Source of the DNA: a phage
Sequence record: PX596819.2
Length of the DNA stretch: 40,621 bases
Direction: 5' to 3' (one strand)
The position numbers and the translations under genes are program-made. The notes beneath the pieces are model-generated. The model was not told the origin of the DNA. It searched no databases and worked only from the letters and a program-made list of their open reading frames with translations. This document shows positions 3,186-10,468 of the stretch, in pieces. How positions within the stretch are numbered: the stretch's first letter is position 1; each line of letters begins with the position of its first letter.

Positions 3186-3449
3186 TTATTGAACTCCATA
3201 CCCTGTGTCATTATCTTCCGTAGCGGAGAGCACCTTATCGTACTCTGCGTTCAGGGCCTCCATATCAGCCAGCGTCTTCTCGTCCACAGACACCTTACTT
3301 AACACAAAGTTGTGACGAGCCAGTAGCTTCTCAATGGCGTTGTAAAGCTGAGGCGAACGCTTAGAGTCATCCCGCAGGTCTTGCAGCATGAGTCTAGCAC
3401 GTTCAGTATCTAGCATTAAGAGGAACTTCTCTAAGTCCATCTGCGTCAT
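3186..3449 (-). CDS. gp18: Terminase small subunit (DNA maturase A, gp18)
   Basis: 87 aa; size and position as T7 gp18 between the holin and Rz genes. Confidence 0.75.
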   Translation of the reverse strand: MTQMDLEKFLLMLDTERARLMLQDLRDDSKRSPQLYNAIEKLLARHNFVLSKVSVDEKTLADMEALNAEYDKVLSATEDNDTGYGVQ

Positions 3450-3640
3450 GTTTTACCACCTCCTTTAATCGTTTTGTAGACTAGCACACCAATCTGGACA
3501 ACGGTGTACGCGATAGCTGCAACGTAGAACCATTCGTTCAGTGTAAGTCCGAAGAAGAACCGACTGGCACCATCAGCCGCAGCGGTCCCGACGATAGGAG
3601 AGGCTTTAAGGACCTCATTCTTGAAGTCTAACTCAATCAT
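3446..3640 (-). CDS. gp17.5: Holin (gp17.5-like)
   Basis: 64 aa with a hydrophobic TM segment (WFYVAAIAYTVVQIGVLVY) and charged C-terminus; follows the tail fibre gene as in T7. Confidence 0.75.
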   Translation of the reverse strand: MIELDFKNEVLKASPIVGTAAADGASRFFFGLTLNEWFYVAAIAYTVVQIGVLVYKTIKGGGKT

Positions 3641-3799
3641 AAAACCTCCAGTTTAAAGCGGGTCGTCCGTTACCCAAAGTTGTTACCATACGTTGGTCAG
3701 CGTGTAGTTAGCCTCTACCTCCACAACCTTCGATGGATTTTGATGATGAAATTCCATTCTGATACCATCAACCGCTTCTAAATAACGGGCCATTATTAT

Positions 3800-5995
3800 T
3801 TATACGATATTGTTCCCCATCGGTACCATGCTCATCGTAGGCGCTACGGAGTAGGATACAATAAGAGAATCACCGGGGGCGAGCATAACAAAGCCAGATG
3901 TCATACCTGTCACAGTTTGTGACCCACCGCGATTGAATTGGATACTCGTCACTGTGCCTCCAGTTGTAAGCACATTCTGGTACTCGCCTGTAGTATTTGT
4001 GTAGGTGAACGGGGAAGCCGTAACCGTGATAGGTTGGCGCAATTTTGTCGGGTACACATAAGCATTAGCGTCCAAGTCAAAAACATTACGGAAGCTACTA
4101 TTCGTGCCTGAATCGTAAATGCCTCCGCTGCCAGTGTCAAAATAGTTAACAGTCAGGTTTTCGATGTTCGCGGCAGAACAACCAGACTGCATTTCGATAC
4201 GCTCATGTAAGCCACCTACAATTCTCGCCCGGCGAGATGAACTGAGCAGAACGATGCTTTTGCCTGTATAACAGTTCTCCAGTACCGTATCTTGCCCACC
4301 ATCCAGCAGGTCTGCTGTCCCGTTAGCCTCAAAACCCATACCTACGAACTTATTCTGGCGTGACCCGCCTGAGGTAGTTATACCGTAGGTTCCGTTAGCC
4401 TCAGAAGTTCCGCCTATGAAGGTATTCAGGTCAGTGTCATTCAGGCGAATACCTGTACCCCCAACGCCTTCCATGATGGTATTAATAAACAGGTTTGCTG
4501 TTGACTTCAGGTTTCTGGACGGAGAAGTGCCAAGTACAAGACCGTAGTAAGGCTTGTTAGTAACTGGTTGCTCATTGATGGAATATGTTATGTTCTCGAA
4601 TACACTGGCAACGGTCCATAATAAACTCATAACCTTACCTGTTGTTGGGCTGGCCTCCCTTAAATTGATATTACGCATAGTTAGGTGTGAAGAATTCTCT
4701 ACATATAGAATGTGCTGGGTATTCGCATGACCTTCTATACCAATGTTTTCCACCACAACGTCGTAAACAGCTTGCAAACCATATTCTGAACCGTCGATCT
4801 TAAAAGCCTTCTCACCGGATGTACTTTTAAGGATAGTGTTATTTTTACCGTCCCCGAAAATATGAACACCTTTAACAGCAAAGTTTGGACCAGTCGCATA
4901 CGCATAAATACCAGCAGGGATGTATCCGCGTCGCTTATCTGTCTGGGCCACTACCGCGTTCCTGAATGCTGCCAGCTGTGCACTATTGTCAGTCACACCA
5001 TCACCGACGGCACCGAACCACAAGGCATTAATAGGGCCATCAAAGTCTCTCACCCAGCAACCGCTACCTGAAGGGTCTGATTCTCCGGTACCAGCCAAGA
5101 AAGCTGAGATGGAACTATACGGTACCGATGGGCTTATGATAGTACCACCATTGTGCGACGTTTTTGGCATGGTCGGTACGAAAATAAACTCGCCACCACC
5201 AGTAGGTTTTCCACCTGTTACTAATATATAATCAGAAGACCATGATTTTAGTTTTACCCTTGAGGTATCCCTCCCATATAAGCCATAAAATCCAGAAACG
5301 GAATCTAATTCCCCTATTAATGAATATCCAAGTTTGCTAGCAAGATGACTACGCAATGATGCATCACCAACACTAACCCACGCACCTACTCCAATCCCAC
5401 CGGAAGATTCAGGAGTTGAACCAGTAGGAACGTTCTTTGGAAGCGTACCATCCCAGCGGTAATAATCACTATCCTCCTCCCATAGCAGTACCTCGTTCCA
5501 TGTTGTAATGTTGAAGCCTTTCTCGAAGGAGCGACGGGTAATATAGCCAATTTTACCAGATGCCTTGATACTCTCAGCGATTCGTCGTGCTTCGTCCTCG
5601 CTATCCTTAGCGTTGCCAGCAGAGCTACCAGCGGCATCGGCATATTCCTTCGCTAAGTCAACCGTTTGGTCTCGACCTTCTTCTGCAATATGGATAGCCT
5701 GAAGCTCTGAATTGGTCAGGTCACTAGCTGTCAACACTGAGCCATTCCTGAAGTCTACCACTAAGTCAGTTCCAGTCTGACGGTGAATACGAACGATGTC
5801 GAAACCTGATTGGTCAACCAACATCTCAATCATCGTTGGATTAAAGAATCGGTAATCTCGGCCAACTTCCAGTACACGGTTCATGGTAGGGTTAGAGCTA
5901 TTCACCAGCGTAACAACAACAAACGTTCTGGCTAGGTAGTCGAACTCAATCCTGTAATGAGTGTTTCCTGAAGGGAATTGTGTAATAGTGGACAT
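3800..5995 (-). CDS. gp17: Tail fibre / tail spike (gp17) with T7-like N-terminal anchor and a distinct C-terminal beta-helix-like domain
   Basis: N-terminal ~150 aa (EFDYLARTFVVVTL, VDFRNGSVL, HIAEEGRD) resemble the T7 gp17 tail-attachment domain; the remainder is Gly/Asn/Thr-rich with repeated short strands, typical of tailspike beta-helices. Confidence 0.85.
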   Translation of the reverse strand: MSTITQFPSGNTHYRIEFDYLARTFVVVTLVNSSNPTMNRVLEVGRDYRFFNPTMIEMLVDQSGFDIVRIHRQTGTDLVVDFRNGSVLTASDLTNSELQAIHIAEEGRDQTVDLAKEYADAAGSSAGNAKDSEDEARRIAESIKASGKIGYITRRSFEKGFNITTWNEVLLWEEDSDYYRWDGTLPKNVPTGSTPESSGGIGVGAWVSVGDASLRSHLASKLGYSLIGELDSVSGFYGLYGRDTSRVKLKSWSSDYILVTGGKPTGGGEFIFVPTMPKTSHNGGTIISPSVPYSSISAFLAGTGESDPSGSGCWVRDFDGPINALWFGAVGDGVTDNSAQLAAFRNAVVAQTDKRRGYIPAGIYAYATGPNFAVKGVHIFGDGKNNTILKSTSGEKAFKIDGSEYGLQAVYDVVVENIGIEGHANTQHILYVENSSHLTMRNINLREASPTTGKVMSLLWTVASVFENITYSINEQPVTNKPYYGLVLGTSPSRNLKSTANLFINTIMEGVGGTGIRLNDTDLNTFIGGTSEANGTYGITTSGGSRQNKFVGMGFEANGTADLLDGGQDTVLENCYTGKSIVLLSSSRRARIVGGLHERIEMQSGCSAANIENLTVNYFDTGSGGIYDSGTNSSFRNVFDLDANAYVYPTKLRQPITVTASPFTYTNTTGEYQNVLTTGGTVTSIQFNRGGSQTVTGMTSGFVMLAPGDSLIVSYSVAPTMSMVPMGNNIV

Positions 5996-6043
5996 TATGC
6001 CTCCTGTTATGAATTAAAATGGAGACCTATGGTAGCGCCTCCA

Positions 6044-6066
6044 GTTTCCTATAGTGATAGTTTAGT
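6044..6066 (-). promoter_or_regulatory. Phage RNAP promoter (phi17-like)
   Basis: Minus strand ACTAAACTATCACTATAGGAAACTGGAGG just upstream of gene 17, overlapping the gene 16 stop. Confidence 0.65.
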
Positions 6067-9000
6067 CCTTGATGTGAATGCCTTGTTCCTCAAACGTTCC
6101 AAGCAACAGCTTCTGGGTAATGGGGTCGTTCGGAACCAGTTCACGGAGCGTATTATACATCCCGGTCATGTAGTCACGCTCGTTGACACGAGTATCAGCC
6201 TTGAGGTAGCCAGCCAAGTTGTAAGCCGAAGCGCCAACGTTAGCAGCATATCCGAAAGCTGGAACCTGCTCCAAGAAGTTACCAACAACATTCATCACAG
6301 GGTCACTTGTAGCTGCACCATACGCGATGGCACGTTCAGGCTTCTCTGTAGGAGAACGAGGTAGGATAGACGAACGGAGCATCTTAGTGTCCTCATACCC
6401 AGCGATGCCACCCAGAATGTTAGCTACCCCAAGTGGGCCACCCAGATGTGAACTACGGGACAGAGACGCATAACCAATCATCGTCGGGTCCAGAGCTTGC
6501 TTAAGGTAATCACGGTCTCGACCATCCTGCATGGCATAAGCCTTGACGTGCGCCTGAGCCATGTAGTAGATACCAGCCAGGCCCATAGACATCACGGTCG
6601 ATAGTGCAGCATCAATCGCTCGGTTGTTCTTCGTGGCGTTATAGAAGGTACGCATGGTTCGCCCATTGATGGACTTGATTACGAAGTTCTTAAACTGAAG
6701 GACAGTCTTAGCGATAGGACCATAAGCCTTGGCGTCCATGTTGGACAGCTTATAAGGACGGAGTAACGTTTCGTCAGCGATGGTGTCACCCATACGCCAC
6801 AGGTCCATAGCCCTTGGGTCCTGACTGAACGCCTTCTTATCCTTGATGGTATACTTCCCGTCTGGACCACGAGTCACTGACTCACGGATTAGGGACTTAA
6901 TACCATTCCACTGCTCGTTAGAGATACCAGCGGTCTTCAGCCATCGGTCATCGAACTTACGCTTACTACCAGTCAGGCTATGCTCCACGATGTCAGACAG
7001 GAAGCCTTGACGTCCAGCGTCTAACAGGTAGTTTGTTGTACCGTTGAGGACTTTAGTTAACGGCGAGCGTACTGCAAGTTCACCAGTGTAATACTTGGCA
7101 GTCCCAAGAGCTGTAGCCGCCCCGCGACCTAGGTCGCTATAGGAGCGAAGACGGTCAATGACATCCTGTTTAGACGGGCGGATTGAGTCATCAAGTTCCT
7201 TACCGAAGAGAACATTGTGAAGGTCCTTAATCTCTGAGGCTCCGACCTTCTTGTTACGGAAGGCTAGGTCACGGAACATCGGGACTCCATGAAGCATTGC
7301 GCGAACGTTACCGCGAGCCAGCATACCGCCAATCTCCGTTAAGTTCTGAACACCCATGTAGGCATTCTTAGCGAAGAACGATAGGTCCGTCATTGTGCGC
7401 ATCACGGTAGCGAAGGCCGCATCGTCAGCACCATCACGTCGAGCACGTCCAGTGAGAATCTTCAAGGTGTCACGCAAGGTAGATACCTCACCTTTCAACT
7501 TTCCGTCATCACCAGCTTTGTTCATCATGGTCTCAACTAAGTCCTTCATTTCCTTCGTGGTCTTTCCTGTACCAGCCATGATAGCAATGTCACCATTAAT
7601 TCGACGGTTGTAGGCCGGGACAATCTTGTCCATGTCCCACTCGCGAAGACTATTGACGCTGAACTGCTTACCATTTGGCAAGGTGATTTCCATGTCGTTA
7701 TCGAACAGGTTGCGAGCCTCAAGGAAGTTATTGTTCTCCAGACCAACCAGACCGTTGATGTTTTCTTCCATTACGGATGAACGCTCAAACTGCTCTGTAT
7801 GGGAGATACCATAAGCCTTATCATTAGCATACTTCTCTACCATATCCATAGTCACCTCTGGTGCTGCTTGAGATGCGTTGCCAGATGTAGTTTCACCAGA
7901 TGTAGTGTCCTGACCATCTACAGAAGACTTCTGCCCTTTGGCAGCTGCCACAGCCGATTCAGCTTCAGTTGTTGCTTTGGTGATTCTGTCTCGAACCTTA
8001 TCAGCCTGTCCTTTCATGTAGTCGAGACGCTCGGTGTTAATACGGACGTGAGACTTCTGTGTCTCAATCATCTGCTTCCGACTCTCAATCTTAACAGGAA
8101 TGGTCTTGCTATTAGGCTTAGCAGCTAGCTTTTCTTCCAACTCCTTCAGCTTAGCTTCATGAGAATCCAGTCGGTCCTTGGAGTTCTGGAGTTTCTTTTC
8201 ACGGTCTGCAACTCGCTTCTCAGCGTTGGTAAGGACATCTTTGAGTTCCGCTACCTTATCAATTGCCTGTGTAGCTGCATCGTCCAGTTTCATCTGGTCA
8301 CGAGCTGCTTCTACAGAAGAACGATGATTTGATGCAGTACCTACAGTCTTACCTGCCGCTGGTTGAGATGCCCGTAACTGCTCTGCTAACATCTCGTCCA
8401 CTCGCGCCTTGACTTCAGGTCTTGACGCATAGCTTGTCAACCATGACTTCTTGATGGCCTCCTGTAATGCCTCTGGGCTTCCAAGCTCATTGATATAAAG
8501 CTGCTTCATCTGAGAACTGTAGACTACAGGAACGTAGGTTCCCTTGAATCTACTACCCGGAAAGATAGACTTAGCGTCTGTACGACCAAACATCGCTGGG
8601 TTCTCCATCATTTCACGCTTTGCGTCAAACTGGTTCTTCAGCATGTCATAGACTTTCAGTTCCCCCGGAGTAAGTTCAGACTTCAGGTTCCCGCTACCAT
8701 CCTCAATAGCCAAAGCTACGCGCTTATAAACATCCTCACGCAGAGCTGAGTTATCTCGCCAGAACGCTGTCTGGAAGTACGGGTCCTTGAGAGCCTCAGT
8801 AACCGCATCGTCGATGTCGTTGTAGAACCGATGGTCCACAGCACGAAGTCTCTCGAATACGTCTGACGCAGTGGTCCCGATTTTACCTGAGGCCCCTGAC
8901 TGCATACCAGTCGGTGAACGCACTAGGTCAGCAGCGACTCCACGAATCTCAGGGTTCTCGGACCGAAGCAGCTTCAGGCCAATCTCAGTCAGACCACCAA

Positions 9001-10468
9001 GGTTCACACCAGCAGCGGCACGTTCAGGCTCAATCACTTCGTCAAATACTTGGCGTGTCTTAGGGTTCAGAGGGTTCTCACCAATCAGGATTGAACCATC
9101 TTCAAGTCGTACACTACCCGGCTCATTCGGAACGTCAGCGAACTTAACGCCTTGATGGCTAAAGGTCTGCTCACCATCCTGAATAGGTAGACGAGACAGG
9201 TCCTGACCATCAGTGTTGCGAGCTGTCTCACGAGCTTCCAGACGTGTAGCTGGGCCAGCGAACTCGTTAGTGTTGCGACCCAAGGCTCTGCCTAGACCAT
9301 CAGCGATAGCAGTCATACCTCCACCGAAGAGAGCACCACCAAGGATAGCCTCAGCCACATGAGCATCACCACCAGCCACTGATGTACGGGCCATCTCTGA
9401 CACACCAGCAAGTGCTCCAGATTGAGCAGCCACTGTGAACATCTTGTTGACCAGCTTACCACCTTTGCCAACCTGTCCAGCGATAGGAACGTAGGTCAGC
9501 GGGTCTACACCAGCACCAATCACACCAGCGGCTAACTGAGCACCAACCCCGGCCTTGGCCTTCTCTTGGTCCAACTTCTGGTTCTCAAGCGCCAAGTTAA
9601 TAAGCTCGGTCAGGTTCTGAGGGGAGCCACCAGTAATGACCCCGTAATACTGAGGAAGAACTCCAGCGTTACGAATCTGGTCCAGCTCCTCACGAGACCA
9701 CTTATGGTTGTTCCATCGTGTCGGGTTAAACACATCGCCAATGACATCAAGTGAGTCCTCGGTCTGACCAGCGCGGATAGCCACCCCGACCATAGAGTTC
9801 TTCACTTCAGCTTCTGTAGCCGCGCCGAAACCGAACCACGTAGAGCGATCCTCTCGTTCCTGCATGGTCTCGCCAGTAGATTTATAGAACATCTCACCGA
9901 ACGATTCGTTAGGAGCTTCAGGTGATTGACCCTCAATGTTTAGACCAGCAGCGGTCGGAAGGTTCTCGCCCAGAGCTACTTTAGGTTTCGCCTTTAATCC
10001 TTCCGTGAGTGCGTCAAATACGTTAGCGCTTACTGGTGGAGTCTTTGGGCTAATGCCATTGAGTGCTCGTGCGACTCCCTTCCGATAGACTTCAGGGTCG
10101 TACCTGGAGCCTGTCTCGTGGTAGCCGATAGCTTGAGCCAGAGAAGACAGGGTGTCAGGGTCCGATAGGTCGAGACTCTGGGTAGCTGGAATACCAGTCG
10201 CAGCAACCACTGAGTTAATATAAGACTGAGTGTCGTTCTCGTTAGGAGGAGCCCATCGGTTGATAATCTTCTCGATGGAGTCATAACCTTGGCGACCGTA
10301 GCTTTGAAGGTTTTTCGCTAATGCTCTTACTCCTGATTCAGGACTATCGAAGATAACGAATGCACCATCATCGCCCACAGCACCTTCCCATTGGTCCTTA
10401 CTTACCCGGAGGTTACCCAGATTATTATTGCGAATACCACGAGTCGCCATTATGTTACTCCTTACCAA
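6062..10468 (-). CDS. gp16: Internal virion protein D (gp16) with N-terminal lytic transglycosylase-like domain
   Basis: 1468 aa; N-terminus (GIRNNNLGNLR.., SPESGVRALAKNL) resembles the T7 gp16 transglycosylase domain; long coiled-coil segment mid-protein; position after gp15. Confidence 0.9.
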   Translation of the reverse strand: MVRSNIMATRGIRNNNLGNLRVSKDQWEGAVGDDGAFVIFDSPESGVRALAKNLQSYGRQGYDSIEKIINRWAPPNENDTQSYINSVVAATGIPATQSLDLSDPDTLSSLAQAIGYHETGSRYDPEVYRKGVARALNGISPKTPPVSANVFDALTEGLKAKPKVALGENLPTAAGLNIEGQSPEAPNESFGEMFYKSTGETMQEREDRSTWFGFGAATEAEVKNSMVGVAIRAGQTEDSLDVIGDVFNPTRWNNHKWSREELDQIRNAGVLPQYYGVITGGSPQNLTELINLALENQKLDQEKAKAGVGAQLAAGVIGAGVDPLTYVPIAGQVGKGGKLVNKMFTVAAQSGALAGVSEMARTSVAGGDAHVAEAILGGALFGGGMTAIADGLGRALGRNTNEFAGPATRLEARETARNTDGQDLSRLPIQDGEQTFSHQGVKFADVPNEPGSVRLEDGSILIGENPLNPKTRQVFDEVIEPERAAAGVNLGGLTEIGLKLLRSENPEIRGVAADLVRSPTGMQSGASGKIGTTASDVFERLRAVDHRFYNDIDDAVTEALKDPYFQTAFWRDNSALREDVYKRVALAIEDGSGNLKSELTPGELKVYDMLKNQFDAKREMMENPAMFGRTDAKSIFPGSRFKGTYVPVVYSSQMKQLYINELGSPEALQEAIKKSWLTSYASRPEVKARVDEMLAEQLRASQPAAGKTVGTASNHRSSVEAARDQMKLDDAATQAIDKVAELKDVLTNAEKRVADREKKLQNSKDRLDSHEAKLKELEEKLAAKPNSKTIPVKIESRKQMIETQKSHVRINTERLDYMKGQADKVRDRITKATTEAESAVAAAKGQKSSVDGQDTTSGETTSGNASQAAPEVTMDMVEKYANDKAYGISHTEQFERSSVMEENINGLVGLENNNFLEARNLFDNDMEITLPNGKQFSVNSLREWDMDKIVPAYNRRINGDIAIMAGTGKTTKEMKDLVETMMNKAGDDGKLKGEVSTLRDTLKILTGRARRDGADDAAFATVMRTMTDLSFFAKNAYMGVQNLTEIGGMLARGNVRAMLHGVPMFRDLAFRNKKVGASEIKDLHNVLFGKELDDSIRPSKQDVIDRLRSYSDLGRGAATALGTAKYYTGELAVRSPLTKVLNGTTNYLLDAGRQGFLSDIVEHSLTGSKRKFDDRWLKTAGISNEQWNGIKSLIRESVTRGPDGKYTIKDKKAFSQDPRAMDLWRMGDTIADETLLRPYKLSNMDAKAYGPIAKTVLQFKNFVIKSINGRTMRTFYNATKNNRAIDAALSTVMSMGLAGIYYMAQAHVKAYAMQDGRDRDYLKQALDPTMIGYASLSRSSHLGGPLGVANILGGIAGYEDTKMLRSSILPRSPTEKPERAIAYGAATSDPVMNVVGNFLEQVPAFGYAANVGASAYNLAGYLKADTRVNERDYMTGMYNTLRELVPNDPITQKLLLGTFEEQGIHIKD

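What the first reader, a model, noticed from the sequence alone, without database searches (positions are those of the whole stretch)
3800..5995. Chimeric tail spike: T7 gp17-like anchor fused to a beta-helix enzyme-like receptor-binding domain
Only the first ~150 aa resemble the T7 tail fibre attachment domain. The remaining ~580 aa are unlike the T7 fibre shaft and knob, and are rich in Gly/Asn/Thr/Ser with short repeated strands (for example NNTILKSTSGE, GIEGHANTQHILYVENSSHLTMRNINL), typical of right-handed beta-helix polysaccharide depolymerases or lyases. This domain likely defines host range and may degrade capsule or LPS.
Basis: inference. Interest (0 to 1): 0.6.

Follow-up and report, generated by a model that had tools for sequence, protein, structure and literature searches.

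The report
Kayfunavirus tailspike with swapped beta-helix depolymerase
This is the single tailspike gene of a K1F-like (T7-family) phage: a conserved tail-attachment end joined to a horizontally acquired beta-helix sugar-cutting module that sets host range, which is a well-known design carrying a so far uncharacterised module.

Summary
Window 3800-5995 (minus strand) encodes a 731-aa protein with its own phage promoter and ribosome-binding site, sitting between gp16 and the holin in a Kayfunavirus genome.

Residues 6-116 match the T7 gp17 tail-attachment domain, and nothing beyond them resembles the T7 shaft or knob. One correction is needed. The genus-conserved N-terminal module is about 215 aa, not about 150 aa, because it also holds a helical linker and a Tail_spike_N domain (151-211).

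The exchanged cassette is aa 216-731 plus 68 nt downstream (window 3732-5351). It begins exactly at a junction motif shared by tailspikes of many phage genera.

The same cassette (85-94% identical) sits behind at least five other anchors, including an E. coli Kagunavirus siphophage. No deposited phage exceeds 31% identity.

A near-invariant E556/D562 pair favours a glycoside hydrolase. Substrate and chemistry remain untested. Verdict: interpretation supported, ordinary architecture, new member of a known kind.

The parts
6048..6061 (-). Phage RNA-polymerase promoter core (ACTATCACTATAGG) directly upstream of the gene, the counterpart of T7 phi17
   Evidence: 11 copies in the window, all on the minus strand, against 0.37 expected by chance; sequence read
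6000..6005 (-). Ribosome-binding site AGGAGG, 4 nt before the ATG at 5995
   Evidence: Read directly from the sequence
3800..5995 (-). Tailspike gene (gene 17 equivalent), 731 aa plus stop codon
   Evidence: ORF. It lies between gp16 (6062-10450) and the holin (3446-3640), as in Kayfunavirus ZCEC02 and contig L005
5648..5995 (-). aa 1-116: T7 gp17-like tail-attachment (anchor) domain
   Evidence: PF03906 aa 10-115, E 1.2e-15; T7 gp17 7boz aa 6-116, E 9e-16; 9vvr tail spike nearly identical
5546..5647 (-). aa 117-150: alpha-helical linker (helices predicted over aa 95-145)
   Evidence: DSSP of the full-length AlphaFold model, at low confidence; region is conserved with 9vvr
5357..5545 (-). aa 151-213: Tail_spike_N beta domain, still part of the genus-conserved module
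   Evidence: PF18668 E 2.3e-20; matches CBA120 TSP1/3/4 and other tailspike N-terminal domains; model pLDDT 76-88
5335..5450 (-). Junction motif (encodes ...YRWDGTLPKNVPxGSTPESSGGIGxGAWVSVGDASLRSHL); the 5' recombination breakpoint is at 5351/5352 (aa 215/216)
   Evidence: This 116-nt piece matches 544 phage records from several genera at 72-97% nt identity. Homology to ZCEC02 ends at 5352. Model hinge aa 214-224 has pLDDT below 50. Recombination motif described in PMC10408124
3732..5351 (-). Exchanged receptor-binding cassette (aa 216-731, stop codon and 68 nt of 3' non-coding DNA)
   Evidence: blastn breakpoints against L006. GC is 45.6% against 49.6% for the genome, in the lowest 0.5% of equal-sized windows. 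No nucleotide match in 50,697 phage records
5036..5344 (-). aa 218-320: small alpha/beta neck domain (PF27114 'Phage_tail_beta' on homologues)
   Evidence: Model. PF27114 is precomputed on homologues. It is shared separately with other tailspikes: 53% identity to P0057, which has a P22-type head-binding domain, and 38-45% to the Providencia, Cronobacter and Pseudomonas phages
4046..5035 (-). aa 321-650: right-handed parallel beta-helix (FGAVGDGVTDN cap at 327-337, then about 12 rungs), the putative catalytic domain
4310..4471 (-). aa 509-562: candidate active site. E509, E532 and E556 occupy the same position on three successive rungs, and D562 lies on the third rung
   Evidence: Conservation in 144 family representatives: E556 99%, D562 95%, E532 85%, E509 84%; rung register shown
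3803..4045 (-). aa 651-731: C-terminal beta-sandwich domain. No intramolecular chaperone was detected
   Evidence: Eight strands in the model. Conserved S661, P662, N667 (99%), P707, D709, P719. No Peptidase_S74 hit

Best explanation
The gene encodes the single receptor-binding tailspike of a K1F-like (Kayfunavirus, T7-family) podophage.

By analogy with T7 gp17 and K1F gp17, it should form homotrimers, with six per virion. The N-terminal ~215 aa (gp17-like anchor, helical linker, Tail_spike_N domain) fix it to the tail. This part is held constant within the genus.

The C-terminal 516 aa are a self-contained cassette of three domains: a neck domain, a right-handed beta-helix and a C-terminal beta-sandwich. 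The cassette most likely binds a host surface polysaccharide (O-antigen or capsule) along the beta-helix. It then most likely cleaves it endolytically, so the phage can work its way down to the outer membrane.

The most likely chemistry is glycoside hydrolysis by the near-invariant E556/D562 pair, helped by E532 and E509 on the adjacent rungs.

The cassette was brought in by recombination. The 5' crossover is at the conserved '...VGDAxLRxxL' junction motif. The 3' crossover is about 69 nt past the stop codon. The cassette is still being shuffled among phages of different morphotypes.

What is shown: gene, domains, fold, breakpoints, cassette sharing and residue conservation. What is inferred: trimer formation, enzymatic activity, hydrolase chemistry, the substrate and the host.
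For: The genome is a Kayfunavirus, 93-94% nt identical to ZH4, PH1061 and K1F over 24 kb.

Anchor: PF03906 and PF18668. The solved tail spike 9vvr (18 chains) is nearly identical over aa 1-215, with E 1e-133. 164 phage records match only nt 1-650 of the gene.

Chimera: breakpoints at window 5352 and 3731; low GC; junction motif present in 544 phage records across genera. This matches the recombination motifs reported for Kayfuna-, Kaguna-, Kutter- and Gamaleyaviruses (PMC10408124).

Cassette mobility: copies 85-94% identical sit behind at least five unrelated N termini. One carrier is an E. coli-type Kagunavirus siphophage, 85.9% nt identical over the cassette. Another copy, at 58% identity, is in a Citrobacter farmeri prophage.

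Enzyme inference: E556 99%, D562 95%, E532 85% and E509 84% conserved in 144 cluster representatives. No His, Lys, Arg or Tyr reaches 70% in the helix. Paenibacillus homologues at about 50% identity carry a Tat signal, and one lies in a sugar-utilisation locus rather than a prophage.
Against: No activity, substrate or host is known. No characterised protein is more than 31% identical.

The Pfam beta-helix score is only just above its cutoff (28.9 against 27).

I could not inspect model coordinates, so I have not verified that the conserved acidic residues face a groove.

Only monomers were modelled. The N-terminal 150 aa of the full-length model are of low confidence.
Confidence: 0.85

Rival explanations
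1. The same tailspike, but the beta-helix is a polysaccharide lyase (or an epimerase/lyase-type enzyme) that acts by beta-elimination on a uronic-acid-containing capsule, not a hydrolase.
Against: The most conserved polar residues are four carboxylates. No Lys, Arg, His or Tyr in the helix is conserved at 70% or more across 144 representatives. The AlgE motif YG(F/I)DPH(D/E) is absent. Hydrolase tailspikes (Depo32, K2-2 TSP, CBA120 TSP2, WceF) score as well or better in Foldseek.
Confidence: 0.2
2. The beta-helix is a non-catalytic adhesin. It only binds the receptor glycan and does not cleave it.
Against: The Glu/Asp set is near-invariant at equivalent rung positions over sequences that are only 30-40% identical. 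Tat-secreted cellular homologues sit in a carbohydrate-utilisation locus. Most tailspikes with this fold that have been tested are depolymerases (PMC6966330).
Confidence: 0.1
3. A T7-type fibre: beyond the anchor the protein forms a fibrous shaft and distal knob that binds rough LPS or a porin.
For: Only the homology of the N-terminal anchor to T7 gp17.
Confidence: 0.01
4. A branched receptor-binding system: the Tail_spike_N domain serves as a docking platform for a second tailspike, as in KP32-like or Ackermannviridae phages.
For: The Tail_spike_N domain is homologous to the N-terminal domains of the CBA120 TSPs, which form a branched complex.
Against: No second tailspike gene follows. Downstream are the holin, small terminase, Rz and large terminase, and no other beta-helix ORF was seen in the window. 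K1F-type phages carry a single tailspike (PMC6966330).
Confidence: 0.04

Closest known systems
K1F gp17 endosialidase and other Kayfunavirus tailspikes (e.g. ZCEC02, LM33_P1, PE3-1; solved tail spike 9vvr)
   Same: Same genome position, promoter and N-terminal 215 aa (94-97% nt identity). Same logic of a conserved anchor plus an exchangeable C-terminal enzyme (PMC6966330; PMC10408124).
   Different: The C-terminal module is unrelated. There is no GH58 beta-propeller endosialidase and no C-terminal intramolecular chaperone (no Peptidase_S74 hit). No deposited Kayfunavirus carries this cassette.
T7 gp17 tail fibre
   Same: Homologous N-terminal tail-attachment domain, aa 6-116.
   Different: T7 has a coiled-coil shaft, a pyramid domain and a tip domain. 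Here there is a Tail_spike_N domain followed by a beta-helix enzyme module.
Beta-helix tailspike depolymerases with solved structures (Klebsiella Depo32 7vz3, K2-2 TSP 8iq5, CBA120 TSP2 5w6p, Acinetobacter tailspikes, Pantoea WceF 6tgf)
   Different: Only 11-19% sequence identity. The catalytic residues cannot be transferred, and the substrate is unknown.
AlgE4 A-module (2pyg) and Geobacillus virus E2 ORF18 (7chu)
   Different: The AlgE catalytic motif is absent. AlgE4 is a secreted, Ca-dependent epimerase and not a virion protein. No tested function for 7chu was found in the papers searched.
Citrobacter phage CVT22 tail protein and Acinetobacter phage Bphi-R2919 protein
   Same: Nearest proteins from isolated phages over the beta-helix and C-terminal domain (79% coverage).
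   Different: Only 29-31% identity. Their anchors differ and they are themselves uncharacterised.

Membership tests
T7 gp17-type tail fibre/tailspike anchor (Pfam PF03906) | N-terminal domain scores above the Pfam gathering threshold and aligns to solved T7 gp17 | tested here: met
   57.9 bits against a cutoff of 25.2, aa 10-115; 7boz aa 6-116, E 9e-16
Kayfunavirus gene-17 tailspike | Genus-conserved N-terminal module of about 215 aa | tested here: met
   94-97% nt identity over nt 1-650 to 164 records, mostly Escherichia and Salmonella Kayfunaviruses; 9vvr E 1e-133
Kayfunavirus gene-17 tailspike | Synteny (gp16, tailspike, holin, small terminase, Rz, large terminase) and its own phage promoter | tested here: met
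Kayfunavirus gene-17 tailspike | [quoted passage not shown] | tested here: met
   Breakpoint at aa 215/216. The 116-nt junction is conserved in 544 records across genera. The paper's logo itself could not be compared because figures are not held
Pectate-lyase superfamily beta-helix (Pfam PF12708) | Score above the gathering threshold | tested here: met
   28.9 bits against a cutoff of 27, aa 322-519, so only marginally above. Also precomputed on most homologues
Pectate-lyase superfamily beta-helix (Pfam PF12708) | Right-handed parallel beta-helix fold | tested here: met
Phage tailspike depolymerase | Homotrimer | not testable with these tools
   Only monomer prediction is available. Inferred from 9vvr (18 chains) and from the trimeric structural neighbours
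Phage tailspike depolymerase | Conserved catalytic carboxylates in a substrate groove | tested here: inconclusive
   E556 99%, D562 95%, E532 85% and E509 84% conserved, but model coordinates could not be inspected to confirm that they face a groove
Phage tailspike depolymerase | Degradation of host capsule, O-antigen or EPS | not testable with these tools
   Needs the host and a biochemical assay
Glycoside hydrolase family 28 (the name NCBI gives to homologues: 'GH28-related') | Conserved catalytic motifs NTD, G/DDD, GHG and RIK | tested here: not met
   None of these motifs occurs in aa 321-731. The NCBI name reflects only the generic PF12708 hit
K1F-type endosialidase (GH58) | Beta-propeller sialidase domain and C-terminal intramolecular chaperone | tested here: not met
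   Homology to the endosialidase gene of ZCEC02 stops at aa 215. No such Pfam domains were found
AlgE-type mannuronan C5-epimerase | Catalytic motif YG(F/I)DPH(D/E). The motif is recalled from the literature, not checked against a source here | tested here: not met
   The motif is absent. The sequence-profile alignment to 2pyg covers only the N-terminal cap

The most novel reading that the evidence does not exclude
The cassette (neck domain, beta-helix with an invariant FE..G..D rung, and a conserved C-terminal beta-sandwich) may represent an uncharacterised glycanase family. It is shared between phage tailspikes on at least five anchor types and Tat-secreted Paenibacillus enzymes in sugar-utilisation loci. 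In this phage it may target an enterobacterial O-antigen or capsule type for which no phage depolymerase has yet been described.
Probability: 0.35. Interest if true: 0.4.

Novelty: new member of a known kind. Interest (0 to 1): 0.25.

Why it matters
Tailspike cassettes decide which strains a phage can infect, and they are used as stand-alone anti-capsule or serotyping enzymes. This cassette has no characterised relative above 31% identity, yet it circulates among E. coli-type podophages and siphophages. Identifying its substrate would add one specificity to the depolymerase toolbox. It would also provide a clean natural example of cassette exchange at the conserved junction motif. It does not change how tailspikes are understood to work.

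Tried and rejected
- NCBIfam and PADLOC gave no hits.
- blastn (distant mode) of the cassette against 5,426 complete E. coli genomes gave no match, so there was no prophage clue to serotype.
- A scan of 185,579 species-representative genomes with two cassette peptides found no relatives. IMG/VR yielded a single locus at 58% identity.
- The terminator scan found no convincing terminator in the 3' tail of the cassette. The counts were at shuffle level, so the 'motif three/terminator' of PMC10408124 could not be confirmed here.
- A literature search for PDB codes 9VVR and 9LNA found nothing relevant.
- I tried to transfer catalytic residues from AlgE4 through the profile alignment. It covers only the N-terminal cap, so no transfer was possible. 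GH28 and AlgE motifs are absent.
- The T7-like shaft-and-knob reading was rejected on the basis of the model and the fold searches.
- A second tailspike or branched system was rejected because no such gene is in the window.
- The full-length model gave low confidence for aa 1-150 because the alignment is shallow there. For that part I rely on the solved homologue 9vvr.

Full report
**What is there.** Window 3800-5995 on the minus strand is a 731-aa ORF. An AGGAGG site lies 4 nt before its ATG. A copy of ACTATCACTATAGG sits at 6048-6061. That motif occurs 11 times in the window, always on the minus strand, against 0.37 expected by chance. It is therefore the phage RNA-polymerase promoter core. 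The window as a whole is a Kayfunavirus (K1F-like, T7-family) genome: 24 kb of it is 93-94% identical to phages ZH4, PH1061, CLB_P1, ST31 and K1F. The ORF lies between gp16 and the holin, small terminase, Rz and large terminase genes. This is the gene-17 position, exactly as in phage ZCEC02 and in the uncultured sister contig L005.

**Check of the observation.** Similarity to T7 gp17 is confined to the N terminus. Pfam Phage_T7_tail covers aa 10-115 and solved T7 gp17 aligns to aa 6-116. G+N+T+S make up 39% of aa 151-731, against 24% in the other long ORFs of the window.

One correction is needed. Residues 151-211 are a separate conserved domain, Tail_spike_N (PF18668, E 2.3e-20). It is homologous to the N-terminal domains of the CBA120 TSPs and other tailspikes. 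It belongs to the conserved part of the protein, not the variable part.

**Where the chimera is joined.**
- 164 deposited phages match nt 1 to about 650 of the gene at 94-97% identity. None matches the remainder.
- Against ZCEC02, which carries an endosialidase, homology runs from gp16 to window 5352 (aa 215). It resumes at window 3731, which is 69 nt after the stop codon.
- The exchanged block is therefore window 3732-5351. Its GC content is 45.6% against 49.6% for the genome, in the lowest 0.5% of equal-sized windows.
- The full-length model has a low-confidence hinge at aa 214-224, between two well-predicted domains.
- The 116 nt ending at the junction encode ...WDGTLPKNVPxGSTPESSGGIGxGAWVSVGDASLRSHL. 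They match 544 phage records at 72-97% identity. These include Kayfunaviruses, siphophages of about 45 kb, Ackermannviridae (up to three places per genome) and larger myophages.

**What the cassette is.** An AlphaFold model of aa 218-731, built on 58 homologues, is confident (pLDDT 92.3, pTM 0.88). It has three parts:
- a small alpha/beta neck domain (aa ~218-320), annotated PF27114 'Phage_tail_beta' on homologues;
- a right-handed beta-helix (aa ~321-650) that starts with the FGAVGDGVTDN cap typical of PF12708;
- an eight-stranded C-terminal beta-sandwich (aa ~651-731).

**The cassette is mobile.**
- The large protein database holds copies 85-94% identical to aa 218-731 that are fused to unrelated N termini, giving proteins of 638, 643, 670, 721 and 760 aa. 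Versions at 58-61% identity occur in Citrobacter farmeri and Yersinia kristensenii genomes.
- The 638-aa form sits after the tape-measure and distal tail genes of a 42.8-kb siphophage. That phage's backbone is about 91% identical to E. coli Kagunaviruses. Its cassette DNA is 85.9% identical to the window from aa 266 to 16 nt past the stop codon.
- The Citrobacter copy ends a prophage next to pepN.
- Sister Kayfunavirus contigs of about 40 kb carry the same 731-aa gene.
- The cassette is mosaic inside. Window aa 321-480 are 98-99% identical to a protein with a different anchor (P0001) but only 86-91% identical to the sister Kayfunaviruses. Residues 218-320 show the opposite pattern. At DNA level, the beta-helix is 84% identical to L005 while the flanking segments are 98% identical.
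- The neck domain alone is shared at 53% identity with a tailspike that has a P22-type head-binding domain.
- The exact protein is not in the 15-billion-sequence collection. No isolated phage has more than 31% identity to the cassette.

**How it probably works.** An exhaustive search of 1.84 billion cluster representatives finds 187 relatives at E <= 1e-30 and 875 at E <= 1e-10. Most of them cover the beta-helix and the C-terminal domain at 30-40% identity.

In an alignment of 144 of these, the best conserved polar residues are E556 (99%), D562 (95%), E532 (85%, otherwise Gln) and E509 (84%). No His, Lys, Arg or Tyr in the helix reaches 70%. E509, E532 and E556 are 23 to 24 residues apart. They occupy the same position in three successive rungs: F-x5-E-x-N/x-G.

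Paenibacillus homologues at about 50% identity keep these residues and carry a twin-arginine signal peptide. One lies among AraC regulators, sugar-binding proteins and glycosidase-like genes rather than in a prophage.

Together this favours a real glycan-cleaving enzyme, most likely a hydrolase using a Glu/Asp pair. The GH28 motifs and the AlgE motif are absent. The family should therefore not be called GH28 despite NCBI's generic name for its homologues. Lyase chemistry (about 0.2) and pure binding (about 0.1) remain possible. Trimer formation, groove geometry, substrate and host are inferred.

The host is probably E. coli or a close relative, because both backbones that carry the near-identical cassette are E. 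coli-type phages. However, no complete E. coli genome contains the cassette.

**Comparison and verdict.** A gp17-like anchor fused to an exchangeable depolymerase is the textbook architecture of K1F and many other T7-like phages (PMC6966330). Its exchange across genera at conserved motifs has been described specifically for Kayfunavirus (PMC10408124). Its only novelty is an uncharacterised specificity and enzyme subfamily. Interest is 0.25.

Noticed in passing
window 7862-8380 (minus strand), inside gp16 (6062-10450): gp16 (internal virion/ejectosome protein) is about 1462 aa here against 1295 aa in phage ZCEC02. The extra ~173 aa form a Lys/Glu/Ala-rich, coiled-coil-looking insert. The same insert is present in about 20 deposited phages (ST31, ZH4, PH1061, NC-A, some Klebsiella and Enterobacter phages), so it is an ordinary presence/absence polymorphism.
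   Followed up: yes
window 761, 6048, 13825, 18510, 19509, 22347, 28739, 31911, 32997, 35038, 38104 (all minus strand): Eleven copies of the phage RNA-polymerase promoter core ACTATCACTATAGG (up to 1 mismatch), against 0.37 expected by chance. All are on the coding strand.
   Followed up: partly
L008 8001-9722 (Paenibacillus sp. GYB003, GCA_036577625.1): A cellular homologue of the cassette (51% identity over 92% of it) has a twin-arginine signal peptide. It sits among AraC regulators, three sugar-binding proteins, a glycosidase-like gene and a CBM96 protein, not in a prophage. A Gram-positive secreted enzyme therefore shares this tailspike module with enterobacterial phages.
   Followed up: partly
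window 4046-5035 compared with L005 and with proteins P0001 and P0005: The cassette is itself mosaic. The first half of the beta-helix (aa 321-480) is 98-99% identical to a protein with a different anchor but only 86-91% identical to the sister Kayfunaviruses, while aa 218-320 show the reverse pattern. This implies further crossovers near the FGAVGDG cap.
   Followed up: partly
L005 11144-11686: The sister Kayfunavirus contig encodes a 180-aa HNH_3 endonuclease just after the large terminase gene. The ORF list for the window shows no ORF of 100 aa or more in the corresponding region 1-873. This may be a homing-endonuclease presence/absence difference.
   Followed up: no
window 5335-5450 compared with Ackermannviridae genomes (e.g. 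CBA120, Mutine): The junction motif occurs up to three times per Ackermannviridae genome, apparently once in each of several tailspike genes.
   Followed up: no
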